From: Candidatus Pacearchaeota archaeon
Lineage (GTDB): Archaea > Nanobdellota > Nanobdellia > Pacearchaeales > GW2011-AR1
NCBI GenBank assembly: GCA_038869895.1
Contig: JAWCQE010000001.1
Span: 121,879 to 185,878, forward strand
Length of the DNA stretch: 64,000 nucleotides
Direction: 5' to 3'
The translations under genes were made by a program, and so were the position numbers. The notes below the pieces were generated by a model, which saw only the letters and a program-made list of their open reading frames with translations, made no database searches and was not told the origin of the DNA. This document shows positions 2,128-28,015 of this stretch, piece after piece. Positions within the stretch are counted from its first letter, which is position 1. Every line of letters begins with the position of its first letter.

Positions 2128-2137
2128 TTAAACGTAA

Positions 2138-3744: not shown

Positions 3745-3745
3745 T

Positions 3746-12487: not shown

Positions 12488-12834
12488 ATTCTCCTAAGAG
12501 TGGTGATTTATGTTGTGGTGAAAGAAAACCTAAGGAAGTGTGGTGTGAGGACAATATATTTCACATATGTAAATCTGATTGTTTGATAGCAAAGGTAAAT
12601 TGTAGTGAATATGGAAAAATCTGCGGGATTAGTCCTCTTGATAAGGAATTATATGGTTCAGAAGAAATAAAATGCTGCTCTCCATGTCCTTATCCGGAAG
12701 GAACCAAAGTGTGTTCTTATGATAAAACTAAAATTTATGAGTGTGTTAAAGATTATCAATTAAAGCTAGCGGAAACTTGTCCTGATGGAAAAATATGTTT
12801 TGTTGATATAAATAATAATGCAGTTTGTATTTAA
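12469..12834 (+). CDS. Small cysteine-rich protein (frame open from 12469; first ATG at 12538)
   Basis: 16 Cys in ~100 aa (CC, CxxC-like spacings). No signal peptide of its own, so it may be fused to the upstream ORF by a frameshift. Confidence 0.35.
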   Translation, partial: SNQPVIDSPKSGDLCCGERKPKEVWCEDNIFHICKSDCLIAKVNCSEYGKICGISPLDKELYGSEEIKCCSPCPYPEGTKVCSYDKTKIYECVKDYQLKLAETCPDGKICFVDINNNAVCI

Positions 12835-12919
12835 AGCCTTATTTTCTTATCAATCATATCTAAATAAAAACCCTTATAAAGCAGAATTCTTTTAATTATG
12901 TGTTAACATATTATTAGGA

Positions 12920-12979
12920 ATATGTAAAATAATATGTTAAATAATATGTAAAATAATATGTTAAATAATATGAATATTA
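12920..12979. repeat. Tandem 12-bp repeat ATATGT(A/T)AAATA x ~5, overlapping the start of the wHTH gene
   Basis: Read directly from the sequence. The units alternate ATATGTAAAATA and ATATGTTAAATA, and each contains an ATG. Confidence 0.85.
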
Positions 12980-13155
12980 ATAATAAAGAGATATTAGATT
13001 TTGTAAAAAGTAAAAAGATAGTTACAAGTTCAGAAGTTGCGAAAAAATTTAATATTTCATGGAATACTGCAGATAAATATCTTCTTGAACTCGCATTTAA
13101 TGATAAAATCGAAAGAATTAAAAAAGAAGGGGTGAATTTATGGATTTTAAAATAA
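12958..13155 (+). CDS. Small winged-helix DNA-binding protein (putative transcriptional regulator)
   Basis: 65 aa. The pattern (ILDFVKSKKIVTSSEVAKKFNISWNTADKYLLELAFNDKIERI) is typical of wHTH proteins of the MarR/ArsR/TrmB-N type. The true start may be the ATG at 12970. Confidence 0.55.
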   Translation: MLNNMNINNKEILDFVKSKKIVTSSEVAKKFNISWNTADKYLLELAFNDKIERIKKEGVNLWILK

Positions 13156-13970
13156 AAAGTCAGATAAGTAAAAAATCAGCTTGCAAGAAAGGACAGGTGA
13201 CAATTTTTGTTATTATCTCTCTTCTTCTTGTTGTTGCAATAATCCTATTATTTATCCTTTACAAAAATCAGCAGATTCCTGGAGTAAGAGTCGAAAAAAC
13301 TTCTGGCGAGGAACTCGAGTCTTGTATTAAATCTTATCTTGAAGAAGCAGTCGATTTAATTTTTGAAAATTCTGGGTATATTGAACTGCCGGAATTAACT
13401 TATCAAATAAGAAATATTTATGGATATTACAAACAAGAAAATGAAAAGAAAATCCCTTATTTGTGTTATACTGCAATTAATTATGTAAGATGCATTCCGC
13501 AAGAGCCTTTTTTTGTAAACCATATAGAAGATGAAATAAAAAATTTCATAATTCCAAAAGTTGAGATATGTTTTGAGAATTTAAGGAATAGATTGCAAGA
13601 AAGAAATTATGAAACAATGTTTGGTATAACAAAAAATTTAGATGTTGAATTAAATGAAAGAGGAGTCCAAATTTATATTGAAAAAGAAATTTCGCAAACA
13701 AAAGCAGAGAAAGAAGAACGTTTTAGCGAATTTAAGTCTAATTATAAGACAAGATTGTATGATGTAGCAAAAATATCTGAAAAAATTATCACAGAGGAGG
13801 TTAAATTTTGCAATTCTGATTATGTTGAAGTGATGAGAAATAATAAATTAATTGAAATAACAAAATTTCAGACAGGAGATGATGTTAAAGTTTATTCTGT
13901 TAAGGATTTACCTTCAAAGAAAGAATTTAAATTTGCTGTAAGGAACTGTGTCCTTGCAACTCCATCTTAA
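13140..13970 (+). CDS. Pilin-like protein (class III signal peptide-like), cassette copy 1
   Basis: N-terminal KKGQVTIFVIISLLLVVAIILLFIL. It is a paralog of 17913..18734 (shared LCYT and KFAVRN/NFAVRS blocks). Confidence 0.55.
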   Translation: MDFKIKSQISKKSACKKGQVTIFVIISLLLVVAIILLFILYKNQQIPGVRVEKTSGEELESCIKSYLEEAVDLIFENSGYIELPELTYQIRNIYGYYKQENEKKIPYLCYTAINYVRCIPQEPFFVNHIEDEIKNFIIPKVEICFENLRNRLQERNYETMFGITKNLDVELNERGVQIYIEKEISQTKAEKEERFSEFKSNYKTRLYDVAKISEKIITEEVKFCNSDYVEVMRNNKLIEITKFQTGDDVKVYSVKDLPSKKEFKFAVRNCVLATPS

Positions 13971-13971
13971 A

Positions 13972-16900
13972 ATGAATAAAAAGTTTATCGCAGGAATTGA
14001 AATTTTTCTTGTCATAAGCATGGCTGTTTCATTTTCATGGATTCTAGGAAATATTTATGGGACTTCTCCAGATATAAAAAGTTTATTAGAATTTATAACA
14101 ATAATTCCAAGTGTTTCTGCCCAAACAACTACATCATGTTGTCTTAATTTGAAAAGCGGAGCCAGTTGTACTGACATTCCATCTGATTCATGTTCTGATA
14201 TTTGTGATGGAAATTGTGTTTCAGGGACAACATGTTCTCAACTAAGGGAATGCAATCTTGGATGTGGATTTAATTCTGATGAAGGAACATGCACTCCAAA
14301 TACTCCAAGGGTACTATGTGAAGGAGATGAGGGCTGTGAATTTCTTGATGACCCTTTTTGCAACAATCAAAAATGTGAAATTGGATGTTGTGTTCTTGGA
14401 TTGAGTGCGAATTTGGAGACGAGAACTGGATGTGAAATACAATCTTTAAGAAGAGGAGTATCATTTGAATTTGACAGTTCAATAAAAGATGGCGTTCAAT
14501 GTTTGAATAAGGGTAAAACAAGTGAGGGAGCTTGTGTTGTAAATTTTGGAGAAGAAAAAAATAACTGCATTTTTACAACACAAAGTGAGTGTGTCAACAA
14601 TATAAAAGGAGTTTTTTATGAAGGCTATCTTTGTTCTCATCCAGAACTTAAAACAATATGTGTGAAGCAGTCAAGAGTAAGTTGTTTTGACAATAGGGAT
14701 GAGGTATATTGGTATGATTCATGTGGGAATAGAGAAAATATTTATTCATCAAATAGGGCAAGTTCATGGAATAATGGATTCGTCTTATCGAAAGAGAAAT
14801 CATGCAATCCTAATTCTTCAAATGAAAATTCAGGAAGCTGTGGAAATTGTAATTATAATCTTGGAAGTATATGCGGAGAGTTTAGGCCTGGAGTTGATTC
14901 TGGAAATATGGAAGGTTATACTTGTAGAAATTTAAACTGCATTGATTCAAAAGGAAAACAAAGAACAAACGGAGAATCATGGTGTGTTTATGATGGAACT
15001 ATAGGCGGAGGAAGTATACTTGAAGGGAAGAGTGGGGGATTATTATCAAAAATAGCTGGAGGATTATTGGAGGGAGAGGTTGCATTATTAAGCACTGATT
15101 TAGTAGGGAGCAGACATTTTAGGCAGGTATGTGTTAATGGAAAAGTAGAGGTAGAACCATGCGCTGATTATAGGAAGGAGATATGTGTCCAGAATGATAA
15201 ATCCCTTGATAATGGAAGAAAGATTGATAATGCAATATGTAGGATGAATTTATGGGAACAATGTATTTCATACAATCAAGGAAATGAGGGATGTGGGCCA
15301 GGATGTTTAACCAAATGTGTGAAAAATCCAGATTGTAGGATTCATCCTGTTTTTGTTGACTCTCGTTTTAAATTTAATGCTTGTGTCCCAAAATATCCTC
15401 CTGGATTTGATTTAGGAAGTACAAGCGGAGTAGATAGTTTTGTAAGAAATTATGTATCAAGTTCTATTAGTGATTTGGATGGAGGTGGGGTTCTTTCAAA
15501 ATTATCAGGAAGTTTAAGTTCTGAGAATTCTGCAGGAAGCATTTGTTCTTTAGCATCGCAAAAATGCACTAGTATATGGACTAAGACATGCGGACTATCA
15601 GGAATTCATTGGGAATGCACGAAAAACTGCAAATGCCATACTGAATCTTTTACAATTCAGATGAATAATCTTTGTGTTTCTCTTGGAGATTGTGGAGTTT
15701 ATGCAAATTATGAAGGAAAGGTTACTCCTGGTGGAGCTTATGTAACAAAGAAAGGAGGACATGGAAGGACCCCTCTACAACCATTTATTTTGATTCCAGT
15801 TTATGCTGTTTTAGTTAAAATATTAAAACCAACTCCTCCAAGTGGTGGATTTTTTCGAGATGAGAAAGACATAGTGAATTTTCCAACTGAAATTATTGAT
15901 CCATTCTTAGGAGGGTATAATAGAATAGATGTAGGGAAACTGCCAAGTCAGTTGGATAATATGCTTGGAAGCCAGTTAGGAACAACTATCGGAGCAGGAG
16001 TTGCTGGAGGACTTGTAGGAGGGGTAGTTGCAGGACTAGGAGGAGTTACAGCTGCAGGTCTTGGAGTTATTGGGGCTGCTACACAAGGAATATTATGGGC
16101 ACCAATTATTTTTCCAACAGGGGGGGTGGGTATGTTACAAATACCAGTTACTTTTTATGCTCCCACTAACAATATCCTTTCAACTGTATTTCACGGACAT
16201 TATTTAGGTAAACCATTTTTCGGATTTGATCCTTTATCAATTGCAATTGGAATCGCAGTTGGAATCGCGATTACTTATCTTATTGGATGTGGAAAAGTTA
16301 AGACAGTTGATATCAAATTTCAGTGTTTACCTTGGCAAAGGCCAAAAGGCGGGACTGATTGTGAGAAATGTGATGATGACCCTTTGAAACCATGTTCAAG
16401 GTATAGGTGTGAATCTCTTGGAGCAAGATGCACTTTGATAAATGAAGGAAAAGGAGATGTATGCGTAAGTGTTTCTGGGGAAAGTTCTATACCAGTAATT
16501 AGTCCATGGGAAGAGATACTCAATACCTCTTTTTATAGGTATGAAGACATAAGTCCTAATGGATTTAAAATAAGAACAAAAGATGGACAGTGTATACAGG
16601 CATTTACTTATTTAGTTTTTGGAGTTGAAACAGATGTTTATTCGGAGTGTTTCTGGAGTTTAGAACCATTTGCATATGAAAATAAATCAGAGGCAAATTT
16701 ATTTTTAGAAGGAAATCTTTTAACTAAAAATCATACAATGCTAACTTTATTGCCAAGTGTTGAAAGTTTATTGGCTAATGAAATTAATAACCAAGAAGAA
16801 TTGGGACAGGCATTGGAAACAACAACAGAACAGGACATCAGCGCCAGGCAATACATATTAAATCGATTAGGAGATTTAAATATCTATGTAAAATGCGCAA

Positions 16901-17898
16901 ACCTTGATGGAAAAGCCAACGACCAGGATTATAAAATAAACTTCTGTGTGTCTCCTGGGCCAGATATACAAGAACCGGTAATAATTGCGTCTTCTCCTCC
17001 GCAGAACAACTTCACAAAATTTGATGCAACAGAACAAGAAGCTTTCTTTTTTATTTCAGAACCAGCTGAATGTAGATGGGATAGTACGAGGCAAGTTATA
17101 TCAAATGAATTAGAATCATATAATTCATTGAGAAATGAAATGGAATGTAGTGTTGATTTAGATGAAAGTACAATACTTGGATGGCCGTGCAATGCAACTC
17201 TTCCAATAACAGGCGAGGAAAATAGATTTTTTATTCAATGTCGAGACCAGCCGTGGCTTGGAAATAATAACTCAAGAAACATAGGAGACATTTTTGAATA
17301 TTCGTTAAAAAGAAGTAATTCTGAATTAAAAATAACTTCTATTAAACCTAATGAAAAAGTCTTTGCAGGAAGTGAACCTATTATGATTGAATTGGAAGTT
17401 GAGACATCAGGAGGAGTTGAAAATGGAAACGCTTTCTGCAAATATAGTTTTGACAATAATCAATTTGTAAATTTCAGAATTACAGGCGAGAAAGTTCATA
17501 GCCAAATTCTAAATCAGATGAGAAAAGGAGATTATAAAGTTTATATTCAGTGTAATGATTTTGCAGGAAATGTTGCAGAAGGCATTGGGGAGTTCTCATT
17601 AGAACTTGATACTAAAGCCCCTGTTATAACAAGAGTTTTTAGTAATGCTAACACTTTATTCATTACAACAGATGAAGAGGCAAAGTGTTTTTATAAGAAT
17701 GAATCTGATGTAGGATGTAATTTTCCGTTAAATAATGTTACTGAATTTAATATTACTGAATTTACAAAGAATGGAAATATTCACTCAACTCCTTTAATAA
17801 AAGGAAAGAGTTACTATATAAAATGCGAAGATATTTGGAGCAATAGAGCTGAGAGTTGTTCTATTGTTGTAAGGAGTTTTGAAAATTTTGCAAGTTAA
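13972..17898 (+). CDS. Giant cysteine-rich extracytoplasmic/membrane protein (1308 aa), cassette copy 1 (fused form)
   Basis: Signal peptide cleaved before AQTTTSCC. An extensive Cys-rich N-half follows, then a Gly-rich hydrophobic segment (GAGVAGGLVGGVVAGLGGVTAAGLGVIGAA). After it comes a CLPWQRPKGGTDCEKCDDD...PCSRYRCESLG motif and repeated Ig-like modules (NFCVSPGPD, DTKAPVITRV). Start refined to the in-frame ATG at 13972. Confidence 0.7.
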   Translation: MNKKFIAGIEIFLVISMAVSFSWILGNIYGTSPDIKSLLEFITIIPSVSAQTTTSCCLNLKSGASCTDIPSDSCSDICDGNCVSGTTCSQLRECNLGCGFNSDEGTCTPNTPRVLCEGDEGCEFLDDPFCNNQKCEIGCCVLGLSANLETRTGCEIQSLRRGVSFEFDSSIKDGVQCLNKGKTSEGACVVNFGEEKNNCIFTTQSECVNNIKGVFYEGYLCSHPELKTICVKQSRVSCFDNRDEVYWYDSCGNRENIYSSNRASSWNNGFVLSKEKSCNPNSSNENSGSCGNCNYNLGSICGEFRPGVDSGNMEGYTCRNLNCIDSKGKQRTNGESWCVYDGTIGGGSILEGKSGGLLSKIAGGLLEGEVALLSTDLVGSRHFRQVCVNGKVEVEPCADYRKEICVQNDKSLDNGRKIDNAICRMNLWEQCISYNQGNEGCGPGCLTKCVKNPDCRIHPVFVDSRFKFNACVPKYPPGFDLGSTSGVDSFVRNYVSSSISDLDGGGVLSKLSGSLSSENSAGSICSLASQKCTSIWTKTCGLSGIHWECTKNCKCHTESFTIQMNNLCVSLGDCGVYANYEGKVTPGGAYVTKKGGHGRTPLQPFILIPVYAVLVKILKPTPPSGGFFRDEKDIVNFPTEIIDPFLGGYNRIDVGKLPSQLDNMLGSQLGTTIGAGVAGGLVGGVVAGLGGVTAAGLGVIGAATQGILWAPIIFPTGGVGMLQIPVTFYAPTNNILSTVFHGHYLGKPFFGFDPLSIAIGIAVGIAITYLIGCGKVKTVDIKFQCLPWQRPKGGTDCEKCDDDPLKPCSRYRCESLGARCTLINEGKGDVCVSVSGESSIPVISPWEEILNTSFYRYEDISPNGFKIRTKDGQCIQAFTYLVFGVETDVYSECFWSLEPFAYENKSEANLFLEGNLLTKNHTMLTLLPSVESLLANEINNQEELGQALETTTEQDISARQYILNRLGDLNIYVKCANLDGKANDQDYKINFCVSPGPDIQEPVIIASSPPQNNFTKFDATEQEAFFFISEPAECRWDSTRQVISNELESYNSLRNEMECSVDLDESTILGWPCNATLPITGEENRFFIQCRDQPWLGNNNSRNIGDIFEYSLKRSNSELKITSIKPNEKVFAGSEPIMIELEVETSGGVENGNAFCKYSFDNNQFVNFRITGEKVHSQILNQMRKGDYKVYIQCNDFAGNVAEGIGEFSLELDTKAPVITRVFSNANTLFITTDEEAKCFYKNESDVGCNFPLNNVTEFNITEFTKNGNIHSTPLIKGKSYYIKCEDIWSNRAESCSIVVRSFENFAS

Positions 17899-17912
17899 AT
17901 TTATAAAGAAAT

Positions 17913-18734
17913 TTGTTTTTAGAAGGTAATAGAATGATTAAATCAAAAAACAAAAGAGGACAGACAACAATCTTTGTTATCTTAGCAGTAGTTATTGTTG
18001 CAGTCATAGTGATTTTTTTTGCAGTTACGGATATAGGGAGAGAAACTTTTGAAAAAATCTCTAATATTGTTGGCAGTGATGAGATTAATGTTAAAGAAGA
18101 ATTGAATAAATGTTTTATTGATAACAGCGAAATCAATAAAAAAATAAATCTAATTATGTCACAGGGAGGAAGTATTGAACCTTCTTTATTTTTTCTTCAT
18201 AATGGAACGAAATTAAGTTATTTATGTTATACTAATGAATTTTATAAGACATGTGTAAATCAGCAGCCTTTAATATTACAACATACAAAGAATGAGATAA
18301 ATAGGGCAATTCTTCCAGAAATAGATAAATGTATTTCTTCATTAAAAGCCAATTTTGAAAAAAGAGGATATCAAATAAGAGGACAGAATTTCGAGAGTTC
18401 AATAGATATAATTCACAACAACATAATTATTAAAATAAATTTCCCTCTAACTATCAAAAAGGGGGATTTAACACAGACATTTGAAAATTTTGAAATAAAA
18501 AAACATAGCCAGTATTATCAATTATTAAGTGTTGCAACATCAATTGTAAATTTTGAATCCCAATATGGCGATAGTGATCCAGTTTTATATATGTCTCTTT
18601 ATCCGAATACAAGAGTTGAAAAATTAAAACAAGGAGATGGGACAACAATTTATAAGATTAGTGATAGGGAAACAATGGAAACTTTTAACTTTGCTGTAAG
18701 AAGTTTGGCTTTGCCTATAGGATATGGATTATAA
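17913..18734 (+). CDS. Pilin-like protein (class III signal peptide), cassette copy 2
   Basis: N-terminal MIKSKNKRGQTTIFVILAVVIVAVIVIFFAV. Paralog of 13140..13970. Confidence 0.55.
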   Translation: MFLEGNRMIKSKNKRGQTTIFVILAVVIVAVIVIFFAVTDIGRETFEKISNIVGSDEINVKEELNKCFIDNSEINKKINLIMSQGGSIEPSLFFLHNGTKLSYLCYTNEFYKTCVNQQPLILQHTKNEINRAILPEIDKCISSLKANFEKRGYQIRGQNFESSIDIIHNNIIIKINFPLTIKKGDLTQTFENFEIKKHSQYYQLLSVATSIVNFESQYGDSDPVLYMSLYPNTRVEKLKQGDGTTIYKISDRETMETFNFAVRSLALPIGYGL

Positions 18735-18750
18735 ATTCAAATAGTTAAAA

Positions 18751-20607
18751 ATGGTGATTGAAAAAAAAGAAGAAAAATTGAAGAGAAAATTTACAAGTAA
18801 TTACTTTTTAGGTTTTAGTCTGTTTATTTTTTTTATTTTATTTTTTTCATCTTATGTCACGGCGCAGACAACGACAGTATGCTGTGAAAAAACTTTAAAT
18901 GGAGCTTACTGCCAGAATTCCATTCAAAGCCAGTGTGATTCAAGATTTTTAAGTTCACAAACAAGCTGTGATGCGACTTCTTTCTGTCAATTAGGAGTTT
19001 GTTATGATAGTGATGATGGATTATGTATGAATAATGTTCCTCAAAGGGCATGTGAAGAAGCAAACGGATTGTGGACAAGTGATGCAAATCCTCCCCAATG
19101 CAATTTAGGATGTTGTATTCTTGGGCAGCAGGCTTCTTTTACAACTCTTCAAAGATGTAAGAAATTATCTGGAACTTACGGACTTCAAGTGGATTTCAGA
19201 ACAGACATCAAAGACGAAGTTTCTTGTATTGCAGTTGCAAATGCACAAGACATTGGAGCTTGTGTTTTTGAGTCAGAATTTACAAGAACCTGTAAATTTG
19301 TTACAAGAGCTGAATGTGGCACTTCAATGAACTCAACAAATTCAGGAGTAGTTCCTAATACGCAATTTTTCAAGGATTTTTTATGTACTTCAGAACAGCT
19401 TAATACAAACTGCCAGAGAACCTCAAAAACTTCTTGTTTTGAAGGAGAGGATGAAGTTTATTTTATTGATAGCTGTGGGAATAAGGCTAATATTTATGAT
19501 GCTTCAAGAATAAATGATAAAAATTATTGGGAAAAAAGAGTTCCTAAAAGTCAGAGCTGCACTGCCTCTAGGAATTCTAGAAGTTGTGGAAACTGCGATT
19601 ATCTTGAAGGAAGTATTTGTTCTAAAGCTAAAGATTCTGGTGTTAAGCCAGCTTATGGCGAATTTATCTGTAGGGATATAAATTGTTATAGTACTTCAAA
19701 TGGAAAAAATTACAAAAATGGGGAGTCATGGTGTTTTTACGACAATAATAATAAAGGGGATGATAGGGTTGGAAGTAGACATTTTAGGCATATTTGTTTT
19801 ATGGGAGAGGAAATTGTAGAACCATGCGCTGATTATAGGCAAGAAACATGCATTGAAGATTCGATAAATGTTGAGGGCGGTGGAACTTTTCTACAAGCAG
19901 GATGTGTTGTGAATAGGTGGCATGATTGTTTGTTGCAGAAAAGAATTGAAGATTGCCAAAATACTGATTTAAGAGATTGTAAATGGATTCCGGTTTCTGA
20001 AGAACCTGAAGAGATAGCAAAAGGGATAATTGATGCATCTTTAAATAAAATTACAAATGGATTTTCTGGATTATTAATGAATGTTATTGAAAAAGATGAA
20101 AGAGATAAAGGGGCTTGTGTTCCAGATATTGCTCCAGGACTTGAATTTTGGGGGGAGTCGGCGGCATCTCAGTGTGACTTAGTAAGTTCAAGTTGTGTTA
20201 TAACTTATGAAAAGACGTTAATTGGAGGAAAAAAGTGTGTTAAGAATTGCTTTTGTGATATAAAAGAAAACCCACAAACAGCAATTCAGGCATTGAATAT
20301 ATGTTCCTCTATAGGAGACTGCGGACCAGGAGCAAATTATATAGGAAAATTTGTTAATAATGGTTATGAACTAAGAATAGATGACAAAAAAATAGGTCCT
20401 GAACTTAATTTAGGAATTTTTACTGCTTCTCCTGTTCAAAGTGGAAGTCCTGCAAATCCCTCTACAAATCCCTCTTTTGAACAAAGAAGAGAATTTTCAA
20501 CAGCAACACAACAGACATTTCAAACTCAAACCTCAACTGCAACTTCAACAACAGGAAATATTATCAAAGATATAATAACTGAAACATATAAACAACTTGG
20601 AAAATAA
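18751..20607 (+). CDS. Cysteine-rich secreted protein, paralog of the N-terminal half of the giant protein
   Basis: Signal peptide ending ...YVTAQTTTVCC. Cys spacing and blocks align with the 1316-aa protein (CNLGCC, SCGNCxYxLGSIC, EPCADYR). Confidence 0.65.
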   Translation: MVIEKKEEKLKRKFTSNYFLGFSLFIFFILFFSSYVTAQTTTVCCEKTLNGAYCQNSIQSQCDSRFLSSQTSCDATSFCQLGVCYDSDDGLCMNNVPQRACEEANGLWTSDANPPQCNLGCCILGQQASFTTLQRCKKLSGTYGLQVDFRTDIKDEVSCIAVANAQDIGACVFESEFTRTCKFVTRAECGTSMNSTNSGVVPNTQFFKDFLCTSEQLNTNCQRTSKTSCFEGEDEVYFIDSCGNKANIYDASRINDKNYWEKRVPKSQSCTASRNSRSCGNCDYLEGSICSKAKDSGVKPAYGEFICRDINCYSTSNGKNYKNGESWCFYDNNNKGDDRVGSRHFRHICFMGEEIVEPCADYRQETCIEDSINVEGGGTFLQAGCVVNRWHDCLLQKRIEDCQNTDLRDCKWIPVSEEPEEIAKGIIDASLNKITNGFSGLLMNVIEKDERDKGACVPDIAPGLEFWGESAASQCDLVSSSCVITYEKTLIGGKKCVKNCFCDIKENPQTAIQALNICSSIGDCGPGANYIGKFVNNGYELRIDDKKIGPELNLGIFTASPVQSGSPANPSTNPSFEQRREFSTATQQTFQTQTSTATSTTGNIIKDIITETYKQLGK

Positions 20608-22692
20608 ATGGAGAATAAAAAGTTAAGAAGAATGAAAAAAAAGGGAATAAAAAAAAGTGAAGGATTATTTTTAATAGCGAATATTCTTTTAGGGATTTTT
20701 GCCTTTGCGTTTATTATGAACGTTGAAGTTGTTAGAGGGCAGGCGGACGGAGTAGGTTCTAATGGAGATGAGGAGGGGAAAGTTGAGGACCAGAATGGGA
20801 TTGGCAATAAGGGGGGGAAAACAGGGGAAGAAAAAGGATCTAAAAAATTTAAAATAGGTAATTTCACAAAATCAGCAAGTTATATAACAGGAGGACTTGC
20901 GTTAGGACAAATTATAAAAGAACTTGCTGGTGATGAACCATGGGGGGATGCATTAGGGAATGCGTTGGGAGTTGCTGGAGGAGTTTCAGGTTTTTCTAGT
21001 TTATTTCCTGAAAAAACCTTTTTAGGAGGTAATGCTCATTTATTAGGGGTAGGGGCAGGAATACTAACTTTTATTTTAACATACAAGAAAATTGAATATG
21101 AAACTGTTTTTTTTACATGTCAACCATGGGAAGCTCCTATTGGAGGGAATGACTGTGAGAAATGTAATGATGGAGTCCATCCATGTTCTGAATATAGGTG
21201 CAAGAGTTTAGGACAGGCTTGTGATTTAGTTAATAAAGGAACTGAAAAGGAACTCTGCGTCTGGACAAATCCAAGAGATGTAAATAGTCCTTCAATAAGG
21301 CCACTTGAAAGCGCTTTAAGTCCAGGATATAGATATGTTCCTTTAGGGGCAAGGCCTCCTAATTGGGGAACTCAAATAAAACCTTTGGGAGACGATTGTA
21401 TTCCTCCATTTACTCCAATACAATTTGGAATACAAACAGACAAACCTTCTCAATGTAAGATTGACTTTTTAATTCTTGGAGGAGCGGGAGATGTTGATGT
21501 AAAACCAAAAGGATACGATGATATGAAATTCTTTTTTGGCATGAGTAATTTATATGATTATAATCATATTCAATCTTTGAGCTTGCCAAGTCCTAATACT
21601 ATAAATAAAGTTGATGAATTAAGGCAGAATGAAACAGGAGGTTTAGAAATACAAAATGATGGCATATATAACTTATATGTGCGATGTAGAAGTGCGAATG
21701 GATTTTATAATGCAGACCCTTATAAAATAAATTTCTGTGTTCAGAAAGGGCCAGACTTAACTCCTCCAGAAATTGTTGAAACAAGCATAAGAAACGGACA
21801 GCCTATAAACTTTGAAGCGGATAATGTAACTTTAAGTGTATTTACAAACGAACCTGTAAATTGCAAATGGTCAAGAGATAATGATTTAAGTTTTGAGAGT
21901 ATGAATAATGAAATGATATGCGCTAATAACCTTCAGGATATAAGAAATAATATGCTTTATGAGTGTAGAACTAGATTGACTGGAATAAAAGATAGGCAGG
22001 ATAATTTATTTTATTTCAGATGTGAAGACCAGCCTTGGGAATCTCCAAGCAATAGAAATAAAATGTCTAGAGGATATCAATTTGTCTTAAAAGGAACACA
22101 GCCTTTGAATATTAAACAAGATTCAATAAAGCCAATATCAGGGAGCATTTTAACAGGAGCGACTTCAACAATTCCTATAACTCTGGAAGTTGAAACTCAA
22201 AATGGATTTAATGAGGGAGAATCTGTTTGTCTTTATAGTTTGAATAATGAAACTTTCATAAGATTTTTTGAAACAAATTCATTTAAGCACAAGCAGACTC
22301 AAGATTTAACTCAGGGAGAATATACTTATTATATAAGATGTGTGGATTTAGGAGGAAATCAAGATTATGGTATTACAACTTTCAGTGTTTTTGTTGACAC
22401 TCAAGCACCATTAATTACAAGAGTCCTAAATGATAATAATAAACTTAAGATAATTACAGATGAGGAAGCAGTATGTAGATATACAAATGATATAAATACA
22501 AGATGCAATTTTGACATTAACGAGGGAGAGGGAAATCCAATGCAATATCCTTCTCAAAATCAGAGAAAAGAACATCTTGCAATGTGGAATACAAAAGAGA
22601 CTTATTATATCAAATGTATGGATATTAACAATAGACAACCGAATCCGACAGAATGTTCAATAATTGTTCGTCCTGTTGAGTTAAGAGAATAA
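20608..22692 (+). CDS. Membrane-anchored Ig-like repeat protein, paralog of the C-terminal half of the giant protein
   Basis: Starts immediately after the stop of the previous gene. It has an N-terminal TM and a Gly-rich hydrophobic segment. CQPWEAPIGGNDCEKCNDG...PCSEYRCKSLG, NFCVQKGPD and DTQAPLITRV match the C-half of 13972..17898. Confidence 0.65.
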   Translation: MENKKLRRMKKKGIKKSEGLFLIANILLGIFAFAFIMNVEVVRGQADGVGSNGDEEGKVEDQNGIGNKGGKTGEEKGSKKFKIGNFTKSASYITGGLALGQIIKELAGDEPWGDALGNALGVAGGVSGFSSLFPEKTFLGGNAHLLGVGAGILTFILTYKKIEYETVFFTCQPWEAPIGGNDCEKCNDGVHPCSEYRCKSLGQACDLVNKGTEKELCVWTNPRDVNSPSIRPLESALSPGYRYVPLGARPPNWGTQIKPLGDDCIPPFTPIQFGIQTDKPSQCKIDFLILGGAGDVDVKPKGYDDMKFFFGMSNLYDYNHIQSLSLPSPNTINKVDELRQNETGGLEIQNDGIYNLYVRCRSANGFYNADPYKINFCVQKGPDLTPPEIVETSIRNGQPINFEADNVTLSVFTNEPVNCKWSRDNDLSFESMNNEMICANNLQDIRNNMLYECRTRLTGIKDRQDNLFYFRCEDQPWESPSNRNKMSRGYQFVLKGTQPLNIKQDSIKPISGSILTGATSTIPITLEVETQNGFNEGESVCLYSLNNETFIRFFETNSFKHKQTQDLTQGEYTYYIRCVDLGGNQDYGITTFSVFVDTQAPLITRVLNDNNKLKIITDEEAVCRYTNDINTRCNFDINEGEGNPMQYPSQNQRKEHLAMWNTKETYYIKCMDINNRQPNPTECSIIVRPVELRE

Positions 22693-22848: not shown

Positions 22849-23541
22849 TCAAGCAAGATAATCTATAGTTAGTTTTGGTGCTATATCTAGTAAGCCAGTT
22901 CTTTGGGCAAGTTCCCTAGAAATAAATCCCACTCCGTGGTCATCGCCGCCATACCCATCATCAATGTCTCTCCCTTTAATAGTGAATCCGTAATTTGGTT
23001 CTCCAGCAACCCAACCTCGGACAGCTTGTTTAACATCCCAGTTATGGACTCTTCCATCTAAAATAATTCTTGAAGAAGAAATAAATTCCATATGATTAAA
23101 AGAAGAATTATGAGTTAAACCTCCTTCTTGCCAAGGATTTAAGGTAAGTTTATCAATATCTACTGTAGCTATTGGTTGTATACGGGACGCTGTTATTACA
23201 GAACTCATGGAAAAAATTGCACTATCAATCCTTGCATTTCTTGGGATACTTGAAACGTCAAATTTTACATACCCTCTAAAACTTGCACTACGTTGTGGAG
23301 TGTGGATTTCACCAGTTTGTATAATATCTTCTCTTCCGTAATTTGTTGCAGGATTTTCAGAACTTGTATAAGTATCTCCAATGGCATATAAAACAATGGA
23401 ATGGAACTCTCCGTTTCCACCTCCTCCTCCGCCTCCGTCTCCCCCTCCAGGGTTGCTAGAAGGACAACCTGCTATTATCCAGTAGCCTGCTAATCCTAAA
23501 GTTTTTAAAATTTCCCTTCTTGTAATTATATCCCCCTTCAT
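22849..23541 (-). CDS. Putative Tat-secreted lipoprotein (poly-Gly linker), function unknown
   Basis: N-terminal TRREILKTLGLAGYWIIAGC combines a twin-arginine motif with a lipobox-like Cys. A GGGDGGGGGGGNG linker follows. Confidence 0.45.
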   Translation of the reverse strand: MKGDIITRREILKTLGLAGYWIIAGCPSSNPGGGDGGGGGGGNGEFHSIVLYAIGDTYTSSENPATNYGREDIIQTGEIHTPQRSASFRGYVKFDVSSIPRNARIDSAIFSMSSVITASRIQPIATVDIDKLTLNPWQEGGLTHNSSFNHMEFISSSRIILDGRVHNWDVKQAVRGWVAGEPNYGFTIKGRDIDDGYGGDDHGVGFISRELAQRTGLLDIAPKLTIDYLA

Positions 23542-25159: not shown

Positions 25160-25648
25160 ATGAAAAGAGGACAATTTCAACTTGGATTTGGAATGATTTT
25201 CTCTATTATATTGATAATTGCATTTATAATTGTTGCATTTATTGCTTTCAAAGCTTTTTTTGGAGTGAGGTGTTCTACTGAACAAGGAAGATTTATTTAT
25301 GAACTTCAGAATGAAATTGACAGGATATGGAAAGGCTCGGGCGAGGATAGGATTAAGGAATTTAAAATTTTAGGATGTGATTTTGATTATGTTTGTTTTT
25401 GGGATCCAAATGTTCCTTCAAGAGGAAATTTCAGAACTTTTGAAGACGATTTCAGTATTTTTACAGGAGATGAAGGAAACCATAATTTATATTTTTATCC
25501 AAGAAAAAAAGTAGAAATTTCTTCAACCTTGATAAAGCATATTAATATGGATTTTAGAGAGAATCCTGTATGTTTTAGAAACGAGGAGAATTCTGTTAAA
25601 ATAAGACTCAGCAAAAACATTGACGAAGATTTAGTAAGAGTCTCATAA
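25160..25648 (+). CDS. Pilin-like protein (class III signal peptide)
   Basis: N-terminal MKRGQFQLGFGMIFSIILIIAFIIVAFIAF. Confidence 0.55.
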   Translation: MKRGQFQLGFGMIFSIILIIAFIIVAFIAFKAFFGVRCSTEQGRFIYELQNEIDRIWKGSGEDRIKEFKILGCDFDYVCFWDPNVPSRGNFRTFEDDFSIFTGDEGNHNLYFYPRKKVEISSTLIKHINMDFRENPVCFRNEENSVKIRLSKNIDEDLVRVS

Positions 25649-25649
25649 A

Positions 25650-26600
25650 ATGAATAAAAATGGTTTTGAGTTCAGCTTTGCATGGCTGTTTGCGATAATT
25701 GCTGGTGCAGCTGTGCTTTTTCTTGCAATTTTTTTTGCAACAAAATATGTTTCAACAAGCGAATTTGAAATTAATACAAAAATTGCAGCCGAATTTGTAA
25801 ATGTTCTTAATCCTTTGCAAACAAGTGTTTATGATTCATCTGCAATAAATGTATTTCTCCCATCTGAAGCGAGAATTTTTACTTCATGCGATAGTGGAGG
25901 AAATTTTGGAAGAAGTATTGTAACTTTTTCCGAAAAAATAGGTTTTGGTGAAAAATTTTCAAGGGCAGGCAATCCAATCTCAACTGAAAATTCATATTTA
26001 TTTGCTGAAAATATTATTGAAGGAAAAAAGATTAATTTTCTTGTTTTCTCTTTAAAAATGCCTTACAAAATTGGGGATATTCTTATAGCTTATTCTGATT
26101 CTTACTGCTTTGTAAATGCCCCAAGAAATATTGAGAGAGAACTTGGAGATTTAACAGAAGGAAATAGTTTTGATGTCATATTCACTTCAAATAAAAATGC
26201 CTGTCCTGAAAGTAAGCCTGTGTGTTTTGGAGGTTTTGAATGTGATATAAATGTAAGATGCAACGACAATGAATGTTTAAGTGGATTTGTAAGAAAGGAT
26301 GGAATGGATAATTATTTTACTGGAAAACTTTTATACGGAGCGATATTTTCGTCAAGGGAAAATTATGAGTGTAATGTTAAGAGATTAATGAAGAGGCTTG
26401 AATCAGTTAGCACTATTTATTCTAAAAAATCCCAGTTTATAGCTTCAAGAGGATGCACTAATACAAATTTGCTTCCATTAATTGAATCTCTTAGAGAATC
26501 TTCTGGAGAATTTGAAAGGCTTGAAAACCTCCCACAAATTTCCTCTATTGCAGACGAAGTAAATGAAAAAAATAAATATCTTGAATGCCAGTTATTTTAA
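25650..26600 (+). CDS. Pilin-like protein
   Basis: N-terminal hydrophobic helix FEFSFAWLFAIIAGAAVLFLAIFF. It is tightly linked to the neighbouring pilin-like genes. Confidence 0.45.
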   Translation: MNKNGFEFSFAWLFAIIAGAAVLFLAIFFATKYVSTSEFEINTKIAAEFVNVLNPLQTSVYDSSAINVFLPSEARIFTSCDSGGNFGRSIVTFSEKIGFGEKFSRAGNPISTENSYLFAENIIEGKKINFLVFSLKMPYKIGDILIAYSDSYCFVNAPRNIERELGDLTEGNSFDVIFTSNKNACPESKPVCFGGFECDINVRCNDNECLSGFVRKDGMDNYFTGKLLYGAIFSSRENYECNVKRLMKRLESVSTIYSKKSQFIASRGCTNTNLLPLIESLRESSGEFERLENLPQISSIADEVNEKNKYLECQLF

Positions 26601-27125
26601 ATGAAAGATAAAAAAGCCCAATTAAAGATAAAGCAGATGATTTTTATGCTTCTAGCTCTAACTATTTTTTTTGTTCTTGTTGCTTTGTTTTTTATCTCAA
26701 TAAAATCAATTAACCTTGAGAAAGAGGTTGTTGAATTAAAAAGAGATAGAGCTTCTAACTTAGTTGAAAAACTTTCTTCAACTCCGGAATTTATATTTGA
26801 AAACAAACCAAATTCAATTGATGCAGATAAACTTATTATCCTTCAAAGTGAAAGTATATATAGAACGAGAACGGATTCGACTTTTTGGGGAGTTGAGGGG
26901 ATAATAGTAAGAAGAATTTATCCGAAAGAAAGAGAGATTGAATGCACTAAATTTAACTATCCTGAATGTAATATTATCAAACTTTTTACAGAAAAAAATA
27001 CAAGTCCAACTTCAAGTTTCGTTTCATGGTGTAGAAAACAAAGTCTTGAAGGAAGGACGTATGATAAATGCGAACTTGCAGAACTTATGATAATTGAGGA
27101 AAAAATAAATGAAGCTCAAGACTAA
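26601..27125 (+). CDS. Pilin-like protein
   Basis: N-terminal KDKKAQLKIKQMIFMLLALTIFFVLVALFF. Confidence 0.5.
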   Translation: MKDKKAQLKIKQMIFMLLALTIFFVLVALFFISIKSINLEKEVVELKRDRASNLVEKLSSTPEFIFENKPNSIDADKLIILQSESIYRTRTDSTFWGVEGIIVRRIYPKEREIECTKFNYPECNIIKLFTEKNTSPTSSFVSWCRKQSLEGRTYDKCELAELMIIEEKINEAQD

Positions 27126-27609
27126 AAAATCGCAGGAAGAAATAGTCGGGTTTGTTTTAATAGTTGTCCTTATTGCTATTATCGGAGTTATATTTTTAGG
27201 GATATCCTTAAGAAAGGATTCAGGTAAGGTTAATGAAAGCCAAAAAATTGCAAGCCTTATAACTTCAATATCTCATTTGACAACTCAGTGTCAGATAAAT
27301 TCAAATTTCCAAGATGTAAGTGATTTAATAAATGGGTGTGCTAATAGAAGAATTTGCGATGATTCAAAGCCTACTTGTGAAGTCTTAAAAACCACTCTTG
27401 ATGAGGTTATGAAAGCAAGTTATGTTGTAACTGATAAAAGCTTTACAACACATTATAATTTAACAATAAATAATAAATTTGATAATACTATTTTAATAGA
27501 GCCGGTAATTTCAGGAAAAGTTGAAAGATGTCTTGGAAGAAAACTCGTAAATGAAAAAAATTTTGGCAGAGATTTATCAATGAGGATTGAAGTCTGTTTT
27601 AATGAATAA
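27109..27609 (+). CDS. Pilin-like protein
   Basis: N-terminal KTKKSQEEIVGFVLIVVLIAIIGVIFLGI. Confidence 0.5.
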   Translation: MKLKTKKSQEEIVGFVLIVVLIAIIGVIFLGISLRKDSGKVNESQKIASLITSISHLTTQCQINSNFQDVSDLINGCANRRICDDSKPTCEVLKTTLDEVMKASYVVTDKSFTTHYNLTINNKFDNTILIEPVISGKVERCLGRKLVNEKNFGRDLSMRIEVCFNE

Positions 27610-27661: not shown

Positions 27662-28015
27662 TTAAATTCGCACAATAATGTTAATAGTATTGGCAGTCAA
27701 CACTGGCTTATGAGTTATCCTTCCGTTATGTTGTTCTGCTACTAAATCAATTAAGCCAAATTTTCTTAATAAAAGGACATCCTCTCTTAATGTTTTGAAA
27801 TCTCTATTTAATATTTTTGCTAAAGAGTAAAGGGATTTTGGTTGTTTCATTTTGATTGTATGTAATAATCTTGCTTTTTCATTACTTAGTAACTTCCTCA
27901 ATATTGATAAATCTTTAATGTTATAATCTTCTTTACTTCCTGTGAATTTTCTAAACACAGAGGCAAATGTCCCAGCTTTCTCGTATATATCTATTATCCT
28001 TGTTTTGTCAACCAT
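27662..28015 (-). CDS. Winged-helix transcriptional regulator
   Basis: 117 aa with a C-terminal wHTH-like segment (LYSLAKILNRDFKTLREDVLLLRKFGLIDLV). It is convergent with the pilin-like cluster. Confidence 0.5.
   Translation of the reverse strand: MVDKTRIIDIYEKAGTFASVFRKFTGSKEDYNIKDLSILRKLLSNEKARLLHTIKMKQPKSLYSLAKILNRDFKTLREDVLLLRKFGLIDLVAEQHNGRITHKPVLTANTINIIVRI

What the first reader, a model, noticed from the sequence alone, without database searches (positions are those of the whole stretch)
12920..22692. Duplicated pilin-like + giant cysteine-rich surface-protein cassette downstream of a small wHTH gene
Two adjacent paralogous modules are co-oriented on the + strand. Each begins with a ~275-aa protein whose N-terminus looks like a prepilin-peptidase (class III) signal: KKGQ.. 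at 13140 and KRGQ.. at 17913. The two also share internal blocks (LCYT; KFAVRN/NFAVRS). Each is followed by very large Cys-rich extracytoplasmic protein(s). Their signal peptides are cleaved to an identical mature N-terminus, AQTTT(S/V)CC. Dozens of co-linear Cys positions are shared (CNLGCC; SCGNCxYxxGSIC; EPCADYR). A Gly-rich membrane-embedded segment follows, then a conserved C(L/Q)PW..P.GG.DCEKC.D...PCS.YRC.SLG knot and tandem Ig-like modules (NFCV..GPD; DT.AP.ITRV). The locus is headed by a 65-aa winged-HTH gene whose start sits inside a 12-bp tandem repeat. I do not recognise this architecture as a described pilus, S-layer or adhesin system. The pairing suggests a minor-pilin-like partner that presents or anchors a giant cysteine-knot adhesin, plausibly for cell-cell or host attachment in an episymbiotic DPANN archaeon.
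Basis: partly seen in the sequence, partly recalled or inferred. Interest (0 to 1): 0.8.

Follow-up and report, generated by a model that had tools for sequence, protein, structure and literature searches.

The report
Conserved pilin-like plus giant cysteine-rich envelope cluster
A group of tiny, uncultured archaea (Pacearchaeota and relatives) almost always carries the same uncharacterised gene cluster next to its S-layer (surface-coat) gene: six pilin-like proteins and two giant cysteine-rich membrane proteins that probably form a cell-surface attachment or envelope apparatus.

Summary
The window comes from a Candidatus Pacearchaeota genome. It encodes wHTH – A1 (276 aa) – B1 (1316 aa) – A2 (273 aa) – B2N (618 aa) | B2C (694 aa). 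A1 and A2 are paralogs, and B1 equals B2N plus B2C.

This is not a local duplication. The order A–B–A–B2N–B2C, followed by four more pilin-like genes, a second wHTH gene and the S-layer gene, recurs across 82 related loci from Pacearchaeota, Woesearchaeota and Nanoarchaeota. The two modules form separate orthologous groups, so the duplication is ancient. The split of the second giant gene is also conserved.

A and D1–D4 all carry a conserved [KR][GAS]|Q class III-type leader. The A1 model (pLDDT 87) weakly resembles bacterial minor pilins and pseudopilins.

B has no Pfam, NCBIfam, PDB-sequence or phage relatives. A model of a homolog (pLDDT 80) shows these parts in order:
- a cysteine-rich N half with no match among the PDB hits listed;
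- a Gly/Ala-rich hydrophobic region;
- a cysteine knot;
- four Ig-like domains resembling adhesion-molecule ectodomains.

My best reading is a lineage-specific surface complex related to type IV filaments, used for attachment or envelope architecture. Function, leader cleavage and the membrane topology of the C half remain untested. I found no published description.

The parts
12919..12972 (.). 12-bp tandem repeat (AATATGTAAAAT, 4.5 copies) overlapping the start of the wHTH gene. Probably an operator or promoter element.
   Evidence: TRF; sequence. Arrays of period 12 or 24 lie at the same position in 13 of 39 related loci, against about 1.7 expected.
12958..13155 (+). H: 65-aa winged-helix DNA-binding protein, the first gene of the cluster.
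   Evidence: Pfam FaeA E 6.5e-05, plus several weak HTH families. A small FaeA-like gene sits directly before A in 37 of 82 loci.
13140..13970 (+). A1: 276-aa class III-signal (pilin-like) protein, the partner of B1.
13948..17898 (+). B1: giant cysteine-rich membrane protein. It is 1316 aa from the GTG, or 1308 aa from the ATG at 13972.
   Evidence: ORF. At least 582 homologs, all annotated hypothetical. About 90 invariant positions, mostly Cys. Homolog model pLDDT 80.5.
14128..15786 (+). B1 N half: the cysteine-rich ectodomain. It has three ~45-aa GCC...C...T...C...G.F modules, then a beta-rich Cys core. It holds 50 Cys.
15907..16284 (+). B1 Gly/Ala-rich hydrophobic region (glycine-zipper-like, 3-4 hydrophobic segments), ending in a clear transmembrane helix followed by K-rich residues.
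   Evidence: Hydropathy. Model pLDDT below 50, except for the last helix.
16297..16506 (+). B1 cysteine knot: C.PW..P.GG..C..C..D...PCS.YRC.SLG..C, with 7 invariant Cys.
   Evidence: Invariant columns. Model pLDDT around 90.
16534..17886 (+). B1 array of four beta-sandwich (Ig-like) domains, each with 2-4 invariant Cys.
17913..18734 (+). A2: 273-aa class III-signal (pilin-like) protein, the partner of the split second giant protein.
   Evidence: KRGQ|TTIFVI leader. Paralog of A1. Upstream and downstream A proteins form distinct orthologous groups (72 of 77 and 72 of 73). hhalign probability 100.
18751..20607 (+). B2N: 618-aa secreted cysteine-rich protein, equivalent to the N half of B1, with a canonical SPase I signal (YVTA|Q).
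   Evidence: 43 Cys in the mature part. The split form is conserved: A-B-A-B2N-B2C in 48 loci.
20608..22692 (+). B2C: 694-aa protein equivalent to the C half of B1. It has its own signal peptide, a spacer, a hydrophobic region, the Cys knot and four Ig-like domains.
   Evidence: Orthologs have AxA-type signal peptides and variable 100-350-aa spacers. 21 Cys from the knot onward.
25160..25648 (+). D1: 162-aa class III-signal protein (MKRGQ|FQLGFGMIF).
   Evidence: Part of the conserved D1-D2-D3-D4 order.
25650..26600 (+). D2: 316-aa class III-signal protein (NKNG|FEFSFAW) with 8 invariant Cys.
   Evidence: At least 214 homologs, all hypothetical proteins from Pacearchaeota or Nanoarchaeota.
26601..27125 (+). 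D3: 174-aa class III-like protein (family consensus KGQ|LKIQQMAF).
27109..27609 (+). D4: 166-aa class III-signal protein (K[GA/S]Q|EE[IM]VGF).
27662..28015 (-). E: HVO_A0114-type winged-helix protein, conserved at the end of the cluster on the opposite strand.
   Evidence: Pfam PF25212, E 8e-14. Same position in other loci.
28461..31115 (+). S-layer protein (S_layer_C family), the conserved neighbour of the cluster.
   Evidence: Pfam. An S-layer-like ORF follows E in all 8 loci that extend more than 1.5 kb beyond E.

Best explanation
The locus is the core of a conserved, lineage-specific cell-envelope gene cluster of Pacearchaeota, Woesearchaeota and Nanoarchaeota.

It encodes two anciently duplicated modules. 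Each module pairs a class III-signal, pilin-like protein (A) with a giant cysteine-rich membrane protein (B). In the second module B is split into a secreted head, B2N, and a membrane-anchored stalk, B2C. Four further class III-signal proteins (D1-D4) follow. A small winged-helix regulator with a tandem-repeat operator probably controls the cluster, and the S-layer gene lies next to it.

Proposed mechanism (inferred, not shown):
1. B is exported by Sec and stabilised by many disulfides.
2. The cell's prepilin-type peptidase processes A and D1-D4 after [KR][GAS].
3. A and D1-D4 then associate through their N-terminal hydrophobic helices into a short pseudopilus-like or membrane-anchored assembly. 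This would be comparable to a minor-pilin tip or priming complex.
4. Each A binds its cognate B.
5. The Ig-like stalk and cysteine-rich head of B project to or through the S-layer and mediate contact with other cells or surfaces.

Shown here: gene content, paralogy, conserved synteny, conserved leaders, predicted folds, and the absence of known relatives.
Inferred: leader cleavage, complex formation, surface exposure of the C half, and the adhesion role.
For: - Paralogy of the modules.
- Conserved order across 82 loci: A-B in 75, A-B-A-B2N in 65, A-B-A-B2N-B2C in 48, D1-D4 in 21, and E plus the S-layer gene beyond.
- 499 tblastn-confirmed B stretches in GTDB species genomes. All 80 fetched loci carry Pacearchaeota, Woesearchaeota, Nanoarchaeota/Nanoarchaeia or unclassified-archaeon titles.
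- The duplication is ancient and both copies are retained.
- Class III-type leaders are conserved in A (160/161), D1 (27/27), D2 (27/28), D4 (25/26) and D3 (KGQ consensus).
- The same leader type is used by pilin-like and VWA genes next to two T2SSF platform genes and a KaiC-type ATPase in the same window.
- B model pLDDT 80.5, with four Ig-like domains matching adhesion ectodomains.
- All extracellular parts carry conserved Cys, in even numbers of invariant positions in A, D1, D2 and D3.
- The C half has the amino-acid composition of this genome's extracellular proteins.
- Genes abut or overlap, as in an operon.
- The tandem repeat at the regulator's start recurs in related loci.
Against: - No type IV filament ATPase, platform protein or prepilin peptidase lies inside the cluster. 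In other genomes the upstream neighbours are PCNA and unrelated genes.
- No prepilin peptidase was found in the window.
- No pilin Pfam or NCBIfam model matches A or D.
- B has its own signal peptide and internal hydrophobic helices, so it cannot be a filament subunit.
- The K-rich patch after the last transmembrane helix would, by the positive-inside rule, place the Ig-like half in the cytoplasm.
- Near-universal conservation, about 90 invariant positions and fixed synteny with the S-layer gene look more like a housekeeping envelope component than a fast-evolving host-specific adhesin.
- There are no expression or localisation data.
Confidence: 0.4

Rival explanations
1. Housekeeping envelope scaffold. 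The B proteins are membrane-anchored pillars that space, anchor or pattern the S-layer, in the way SlaB-type stalks do. The class III-signal proteins are structural struts or assembly factors. The complex is needed for envelope integrity or division, not for attachment to a host.
For: - Fixed position next to the S_layer_C gene in every locus that reaches that far.
- Presence in about 500 stretches across species-level genomes of the lineage.
- Very strong conservation: about 90 invariant positions, and both ancient paralogs retained.
- A membrane-proximal knot plus a four-domain stalk of constant length, 482-571 aa.
Against: - No sequence or fold similarity to known S-layer or S-layer-anchor proteins.
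- A dedicated regulator with an operator-like repeat suggests regulated rather than constitutive expression.
- S-layer adjacency may simply reflect a general 'surface' gene neighbourhood.
Confidence: 0.27
2. Transmembrane receptor or connector with a cytoplasmic Ig-like half. Only the Cys-rich N half is outside, together with the ectodomains of A and D. The last helix is a stop-transfer anchor. The knot, perhaps Zn-binding, and the four beta-sandwich domains sit in the cytoplasm and couple an external event to an internal partner.
For: - A K-rich patch (GKTK, YKKEKKK, GKKKEK) directly follows the last hydrophobic helix in most family members. Net charge of the 14 residues before the knot is 0 or positive in 50 of 58 full-length proteins.
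- B2C orthologs look like classical type I membrane proteins: a cleavable signal peptide, a variable spacer, one clear transmembrane helix, then the K-rich patch.
- Full-length B most often shows 3 hydrophobic segments.
- Invariant His929 and His1184 lie near Cys pairs and could complete metal sites.
Against: - The C half has 9-10% K+R, 32-34% S/T/N/Q/G and net negative charge. That matches this genome's S-layer, VWA and CBM96 proteins. Its cytoplasmic proteins have 12-21% K+R and 22-30% S/T/N/Q/G.
- Each beta-sandwich carries 2-4 invariant Cys. The pair in the third sandwich domain resembles, by my reading of the consensus, the Ig B- and F-strand disulfide positions.
- Weak matches to the surface-protein Ig family Big_13, and a TSP3-like calcium-binding repeat inserted in one member's C half.
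- Two conserved N-X-T sequons in the C half.
Confidence: 0.15
3. The class III-like leaders are ordinary uncleaved signal anchors, and the system has nothing to do with type IV filament biology. A and D1-D4 would then be simply membrane-tethered accessory or chaperone proteins for folding and disulfide formation of the giant proteins.
For: - No pilin HMM matches A or D.
- In the A1 model a low-confidence linker separates the transmembrane helix from the globular domain.
- There are no filament machinery genes in the cluster.
Against: - Invariant Q and T at +1 and +3, and [KR][GAS] at -2 and -1, in 160 of 161 A proteins. Family-specific but equally strict motifs occur in D2 and D4.
- The identical leader type is found on pilin-like genes beside the T2SSF genes in the same window.
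Confidence: 0.1

Closest known systems
Minor-pilin / pseudopilin tip sets with a large non-pilin partner (bacterial FimU-PilVWX-PilY1; T2SS GspH-I-J-K)
   Same: - Several class III-signal proteins are encoded in a row, including one large one (D2, 316 aa, cf. GspK at about 330 aa).
- They are encoded together with very large surface proteins.
- A1's best PDB fold matches include EpsI/GspI, GspK, PilE and competence pilins.
   Different: - No sequence homology.
- B has a Sec signal and internal hydrophobic helices, and lacks the VWA and beta-propeller domains of PilY1.
- No ATPase, platform protein or peptidase in the cluster.
- The globular parts of D1-D4 and A show no detectable profile similarity to one another, apart from the A1/A2 paralogs.
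Archaeal class III-signal surface proteins that are not filament subunits (Saccharolobus bindosome substrate-binding proteins; the type IV filament accessory proteins surveyed in bioRxiv 10.64898/2026.04.22.720090 and PMC4858521)
   Same: - Globular extracellular proteins with prepilin-type leaders.
- Large adhesin-like, multi-Ig proteins encoded beside pilin genes.
- S-layer genes nearby.
   Different: - No substrate-binding fold.
- This cluster, the A and D families and the B family do not appear in the passages of those two surveys that I searched by keyword. PMC4858521 never mentions DPANN and, as I recall, analysed no Pacearchaeota genomes.
Tandem Ig/cadherin/Fn3 adhesion ectodomains (e.g. 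GhpA grappling hook, RTX adhesin repeats, cadherins, PTP-delta)
   Different: - Only four domains, of fixed number.
- 2-4 invariant Cys in each domain.
- The array lies directly after a membrane helix and a Cys knot.
- Sequence identity is about 10%, and Pfam Big_13 scores are below the cut-off.
F-plasmid TraN, the cysteine-rich mating-pair stabilisation protein (comparison from my own knowledge of the family)
   Same: A surface protein with many conserved cysteines that acts alongside a pilus-based cell-cell contact system.
   Different: - No sequence similarity: the Pfam scan of B1 at E<=1 returned no family.
- TraN is an outer-membrane protein of diderm bacteria.
- It has no pilin-like partner gene pairing.

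Membership tests
Type IV pilin / class III signal peptide proteins (type IV filament subunits), for A1, A2 and D1-D4 | A short basic leader ending in [KR][GAS], followed by a ~20-residue hydrophobic helix (FlaFind-type pattern) | tested here: met
   KKGQ|VTIFVI (A1), KRGQ|TTIFVI (A2), KRGQ|FQLGFGMIF (D1), NKNG|FEFSFAW (D2), KKAQ|LKIKQMIF (D3), KKSQ|EEIVGF (D4). Conserved in 160/161, 27/27, 27/28 and 25/26 orthologs, and in the D3 consensus.
Type IV pilin / class III signal peptide proteins | Cleavage of the leader by a prepilin peptidase (PibD/FlaK/EppA, peptidase A24) | not testable with these tools
   No such peptidase was found in the window or in the held loci, using Pfam on the larger ORFs and a motif filter. 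Whole genomes were not available.
Type IV pilin / class III signal peptide proteins | Match to a pilin family model (Pfam Class_IIIsignal, Pilin_N, N_methyl, TadE; NCBIfam pilin models) | tested here: not met
   No hit at E<=1 for A1. The only hit for A2 is Tad (E 0.059, below the cut-off). None for D1-D4.
Type IV pilin / class III signal peptide proteins | An N-terminal helix followed by a globular pilin fold | tested here: inconclusive
Type IV pilin / class III signal peptide proteins | Genomic association with a type IV filament ATPase and platform protein | tested here: inconclusive
   In this window two T2SSF-type genes and a KaiC-type ATPase lie at 1-2127, about 11 kb upstream. In other genomes the cluster's neighbours are PCNA and unrelated genes.
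PilY1/TadG-type pilus-associated adhesins, for B | A VWA domain and/or a C-terminal beta-propeller | tested here: not met
   No Pfam family for B1 or B2N at E<=1. The model shows no such domains, and fold hits are Ig-like only. A separate VWA protein exists at 3746-6208.
Archaeal S-layer proteins, for B | Match to S-layer families (e.g. S_layer_C, S_layer_N) | tested here: not met
   No hit for B. The true S_layer_C protein is the neighbouring gene at 28461-31115.
Bacterial/archaeal Ig-like repeat surface proteins (Big_13 and relatives), for the C half of B | A beta-sandwich Ig-like fold in tandem, with a family HMM above its cut-off | tested here: inconclusive
Class II membrane fusogens (fusexin / HAP2 / viral E-type), considered for the N half of B | A three-domain beta-rich class II fold | tested here: inconclusive
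Phage or virus proteins | Relatives in viral protein families or viral contigs | tested here: not met
   PHROGs: no hit for A1, B1, B2N or D1-D4, and only marginal unknown-function hits for A2 (E 0.006) and B2C (E 0.003). No relative in 2.9 million IMG/VR contigs.

The most novel reading that the evidence does not exclude
The cluster encodes a previously unrecognised host-contact machine of DPANN archaea. The disulfide-rich heads of B would bind a partner cell. The unusually long Gly/Ala-rich, glycine-zipper-like hydrophobic region (3-4 segments, about 80-130 aa) would oligomerise into a pore or insert into a membrane. The six pilin-like proteins would act as a pseudopilus piston or scaffold. 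Together they would form the conduit through which these lipid- and nucleotide-auxotrophic cells obtain material from hosts.
Probability: 0.1. Interest if true: 0.9.

Novelty: new variant of a known kind. Interest (0 to 1): 0.65.

Why it matters
Pacearchaeota and Woesearchaeota are among the most abundant uncultured archaea in groundwater, lakes and sediments. How they build their envelope and contact other cells is unknown.

This cluster takes up about 13-14 kb where it is contiguous. That is a large share of contigs of 0.57-0.87 Mb, which may be near-complete genomes. It is conserved in hundreds of species-level genomes and is made entirely of 'hypothetical proteins'.

It offers a concrete, testable candidate for the surface apparatus of this lineage:
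- six predicted prepilin-peptidase substrates;
- two giant disulfide-rich proteins whose roughly 550-residue N half has no relative in solved structures;
- a dedicated regulator with a recognisable operator.

It also gives a clean natural example of a conserved gene fission. The downstream half acquired its own signal peptide after the split.

Tried and rejected
- Known-family assignment. Pfam, NCBIfam and PHROGs scans of all cluster proteins gave only wHTH hits for H and E and sub-threshold Big_13 hits. Profile searches of PDB sequences for B, A and D1-D4 gave nothing significant.
- Viral origin. No relatives in IMG/VR.
- Pseudogene or sequencing error as the cause of the B2N|B2C stop. Rejected because the split is conserved in 48 loci and B2C orthologs carry their own signal peptides.
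- Recent duplication or gene conversion. Rejected because the paralogs form separate orthologous groups. The shared AQTTT N-terminus is genome-specific and uses different codons.
- D1-D4 as paralogs of A. hhalign found no relationship once the N-terminal helices were removed.
- Prepilin peptidase search. Pfam on the larger ORFs plus a GxGD[KR] multi-TM motif filter over the window and 1.57 Mb of related loci found none.
- Literature. Five full-text searches (Pacearchaeota, DPANN, pilin, cysteine-rich, class III signal and related terms) found no description of this family or cluster. Four papers were checked by keyword.

Full report
**Identity of the window.** The window carries an archaeal 23S rRNA gene (37181-40015) and has about 29% G+C. 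Protein A1 is 100% identical to 'hypothetical protein QW727_00800 [Candidatus Pacearchaeota archaeon]' on a 221-kb contig. D2 is QW727_00840.

On the + strand lie:
- a 65-aa winged-helix gene (12958-13155);
- A1 (13140-13970, 276 aa);
- B1 (13948-17898, 1316 aa; the database homolog P0001 starts at the ATG at 13972);
- A2 (17913-18734, 273 aa);
- B2N (18751-20607, 618 aa);
- B2C (20608-22692, 694 aa).

B2N and B2C are in the same reading frame, separated only by TAA followed directly by ATG. A1 and A2 are paralogs (26% identity, E 6e-21). B1 aligns along its N half with B2N (33%, E 5e-68) and along its C half with B2C (35%, E 6e-80). B1 has 72 cysteines. The 12-bp tandem repeat at the regulator's start is real (12919-12972, 4.5 copies). 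Genes abut or overlap throughout, as in an operon.

**The arrangement is ancient and widely conserved.** B1 has at least 582 database homologs of 1,100-1,400 aa. All are annotated 'hypothetical', nearly all lack any Pfam domain, and wherever a source names the organism it is a Pacearchaeota or Nanoarchaeota MAG, apart from one entry labelled Paceibacterota. A scan of one genome per GTDB species found 499 confirmed stretches, and every one of the 80 loci fetched carries a Pacearchaeota, Woesearchaeota, Nanoarchaeota/Nanoarchaeia or unclassified-archaeon title.

I annotated 82 distinct loci with the window's proteins. Many of them are cut by contig ends or by the 10-kb flank limit. The counts were:
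- A directly before a full-length B: 75 loci.
- A-B-A-B2N: 65 loci.
- A-B-A-B2N-B2C: 48 loci.
- An unsplit second B: only 4 loci.
- D1-D2-D3-D4 in order: 21 loci.
- D2-D3-D4 followed by an opposite-strand HVO_A0114-type wHTH gene: 23 loci.
- A small wHTH gene directly before the first A: 37 loci.

All 8 loci that extend more than 1.5 kb beyond that point continue into an S_layer_C-type S-layer gene. Precomputed gene calls on long contigs show the same picture.

In the window the same genes are present: D1-D4 at 25160-27609, E at 27662-28015 (minus strand) and the S-layer gene at 28461-31115. Two genes are inserted between B2C and D1, a CBM96-domain protein and a SLFN/AlbA_2 protein. Other genomes lack this insertion.

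Upstream and downstream A proteins fall into separate orthologous groups. The best hit in another genome is of the same positional class in 72 of 77 and 72 of 73 cases. Median identity is 32% to the paralog in the same genome, against 57% to the best ortholog. The duplication therefore predates the radiation of these lineages, and both modules have been kept. The fission of the second giant gene is likewise old and is not an assembly error.

**The pilin-like proteins.** In the 29-sequence A alignment, Q at +1 and T at +3 are invariant within K-K/R-G-Q-(V/I)-T-I-F-V-I. Across 161 A-family ORFs, 160 have [KR][GAS] followed by Q and an uncharged hydrophobic stretch. D1 (27/27), D2 (27/28; G|FE.SF) and D4 (25/26; K[GA]|QEE[IM]VGF) have equally strict leaders of their own, and the D3 consensus is KGQ|LKIQQMAF.

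The same leader type (MKKRGQ|AAMEFL, MKNKRGQ|GIIEF, KKAQ|...) occurs on five genes at 2138-7036. These include a VWA protein and a DUF7266 protein. They lie beside two T2SSF-type platform genes and a KaiC-type ATPase at the start of the window. The genome therefore has type IV filament machinery, and bona fide pilin-like genes in it use this leader.

No pilin HMM matches A or D, and no PDB sequence is related. D1-D4 are unrelated to A and to each other outside the N-terminal helix. A, D1, D2 and D3 have even numbers of invariant Cys (4, 2, 8 and 4), and D4 has at least 4. This is the pattern expected of disulfide-stabilised extracellular domains.

I conclude that A and D1-D4 are very probably substrates of a prepilin-type peptidase. 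Whether they form a filament, a short pseudopilus, or are simply anchored by their helices is not shown.

**The giant proteins.** No Pfam, NCBIfam or PHROGs family matches B, and neither does any PDB sequence. Pfam on 37 members gives only sub-threshold Big_13 (5 members), DUF4625 (3) and single hits. No viral contig encodes a relative.

The family alignment has about 90 invariant positions, of which about 65 are Cys. I modelled a full-length homolog (P0015, 1165 aa, 42% identical to B1 over 99% of it) with a 58-sequence alignment. The result was pLDDT 80.5 and pTM 0.55. Mapped onto B1, the parts are:
- an N-terminal signal or anchor helix;
- three ~45-aa cysteine-rich modules, whose consensus repeats GCC...C...T...C....G.F three times;
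- a beta-rich cysteine core, up to about residue 613;
- short helices;
- a Gly/Ala-rich hydrophobic region that is not confidently modelled (residues 654-762);
- a clear transmembrane helix (764-779);
- the invariant knot C.PW..P.GG..C..C..D...PCS.YRC.SLG..C (784-853);
- four beta-sandwich domains running to the C terminus.

**Further regularities.**
- From the knot onward there are exactly 21 Cys in 50 of 58 full-length proteins and in 27 of 29 B2C proteins. The N halves have modal counts of 43 or 45. Both are odd numbers, which is compatible with one inter-half disulfide or one free or metal-bound Cys on each side.
- N-X-S/T sequons are depleted 2.7-fold in the N half family-wide (59 observed, 158 expected). 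They occur at the expected frequency in the C half (175 vs 168). Two C-half sequons are conserved: N928 in 50 of 58 and N1263 in 35 of 58.
- The C half has a constant length of 482-571 aa and no C-terminal anchor.

**An unresolved point: membrane topology.** The N half is certainly outside. It has a basic n-region, a hydrophobic core and a VSA-type site. The site is canonical in B2N and in B2C orthologs. It lies unusually far from the hydrophobic core in the window's B1.

Evidence that the knot and Ig half are cytoplasmic: the last hydrophobic helix is followed by a K-rich patch (GKTK, GKKKEK, YKKEKKK). The hydrophobic region most often shows 3 segments in full-length B (21 of 58) and 4 nearly as often (19 of 58), and the B2C orthologs I inspected show one clear helix after the signal peptide. 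Under the positive-inside rule this would place the knot and Ig half in the cytoplasm.

Evidence that they are extracellular:
- The C half has the composition of this genome's extracellular proteins, with K+R 9-10%, S/T/N/Q/G 32-34% and net negative charge. It matches the S-layer, VWA and CBM96 proteins. Cytoplasmic proteins here have K+R 12-21% and S/T/N/Q/G 22-30%.
- Each beta-sandwich domain has 2-4 invariant Cys.
- Its weak family matches are to surface Ig domains.
- One member has a TSP3-type calcium-binding repeat inserted there.

I judge an extracellular C half more likely, at roughly 60:40, but I could not settle the question without model coordinates.

**The regulator.** The 65-aa protein matches FaeA and other wHTH families weakly. 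Its start lies inside the 12-bp repeat. In related loci, tandem arrays of period 11-13 or 23-25 lie within -100 to +40 of the homologous gene's start in 13 of 39 cases. About 1.7 would be expected from the overall density of such arrays in the same 1.57 Mb. This supports an operator function, with one repeat per helical turn. The control does not correct for intergenic AT-richness.

**Interpretation.** The evidence best supports a lineage-specific envelope complex built from predicted prepilin-peptidase substrates and two paralogous giant disulfide-rich membrane proteins, each with a dedicated A-type partner.

- The closest functional analogy is a minor-pilin or pseudopilin set working with a large non-pilin surface protein (PilY1-type). 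Archaeal class III-signal proteins that are surface-anchored rather than polymerised offer a second analogy. Recent surveys of archaeal type IV filament systems note adhesin-like multi-Ig proteins and S-layer genes in such loci (PMC4858521; bioRxiv 10.64898/2026.04.22.720090). This cluster did not appear in the passages of those surveys that I searched by keyword.
- Membership of the pilin family is supported only by the leader motif, not by HMMs, and only weakly by fold.
- B belongs to no known family.
- An adhesion or host-contact role is plausible for an organism of this lifestyle, but it is inferred. The strict conservation and the S-layer synteny fit a structural envelope role about as well. 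The K-rich stop-transfer signal keeps a receptor-like topology in play.
- A more radical reading is a pore or conduit formed by the glycine-zipper-like region. It is not excluded, but it has no direct support.

**Novelty.** Five literature searches and four papers checked by keyword gave no description of the family or the cluster. I rate it a new variant of a known kind: a surface system related to type IV filaments. One component, the N half of B, may be structurally new.

Noticed in passing
window 1-7036: A separate type IV filament-type locus. It holds the C-terminal end of one T2SSF-like platform protein (1-326), a second T2SSF gene (327-1289) and a KaiC/FlaH-like ATPase (1342-2127). On the minus strand are five genes with [KR][GA]|Q class III-type leaders, including an 820-aa VWA protein (3746-6208) and a DUF7266 protein (6647-7036).
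   Followed up: partly
window 12257-12834: A 98-aa ORF with 16 cysteines and no signal peptide of its own (12538-12834). A 76-aa ORF with an N-terminal transmembrane segment precedes it in another frame (12257-12487). This may be a frameshifted small Cys-rich secreted protein. None of the 82 related loci has a counterpart.
   Followed up: partly
window 22849-24969 (minus strand): A CBM96-domain protein with a lipoprotein-like N-terminus, and a membrane protein with a SLFN/AlbA_2 domain, are inserted between B2C and D1 in this genome. None of the 82 related loci shows these genes, and D1 directly follows B2C (or a full-length second B) in the 25 loci that reach that far.
   Followed up: partly
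window 12919-12972 and the homologous position in L013, L017, L032, L036, L040, L046, L048, L051, L058, L081: Tandem arrays of period 12 or 24 recur at the start of the small wHTH gene in 13 of 39 related loci, against about 1.7 expected from array density. The units often contain AATAT/ATATG-like cores. This is a likely operator.
   Followed up: partly
window 14107-14140 and 18853-18886: B1 and B2N share the N-terminus AQTTT(S/V)CC only in this genome. In 39 other genomes the paralogs share a median of 1 of 12 residues there. The codons differ at synonymous sites, so this is not recent gene conversion. The cause is unexplained.
   Followed up: yes
B family (alignments A1 and A4); window 14128-15786 versus 16297-17886: N-X-S/T sequons are 2.7-fold depleted in the cysteine-rich N half family-wide (59 vs 158 expected). 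The C half is not depleted (175 vs 168) and has two conserved sequons, at N928 and N1263 of B1.
   Followed up: partly
B family; window 16297-17898 and 21100-22692: The Cys count from the knot to the C terminus is exactly 21 in 50 of 58 full-length proteins and 27 of 29 split proteins. The N halves are modally 43 or 45. Both counts are odd, which suggests one inter-half disulfide or one special Cys per half.
   Followed up: partly
L039 and L063; L048, L057, L074: Variants of the cluster. L039 and L063 have three A-B modules in a row. L048, L057 and L074 have an unsplit second giant gene (1287-1368 aa). Some genomes, such as L003, have an extra ~124-aa gene between B2N and B2C.
   Followed up: no
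window 33260-34897 (minus strand): A 545-aa secreted protein with a weak DUF4625 match. The same weak family match also appears in 3 of 37 B-family members. It may share an Ig-like module with them.
   Followed up: no
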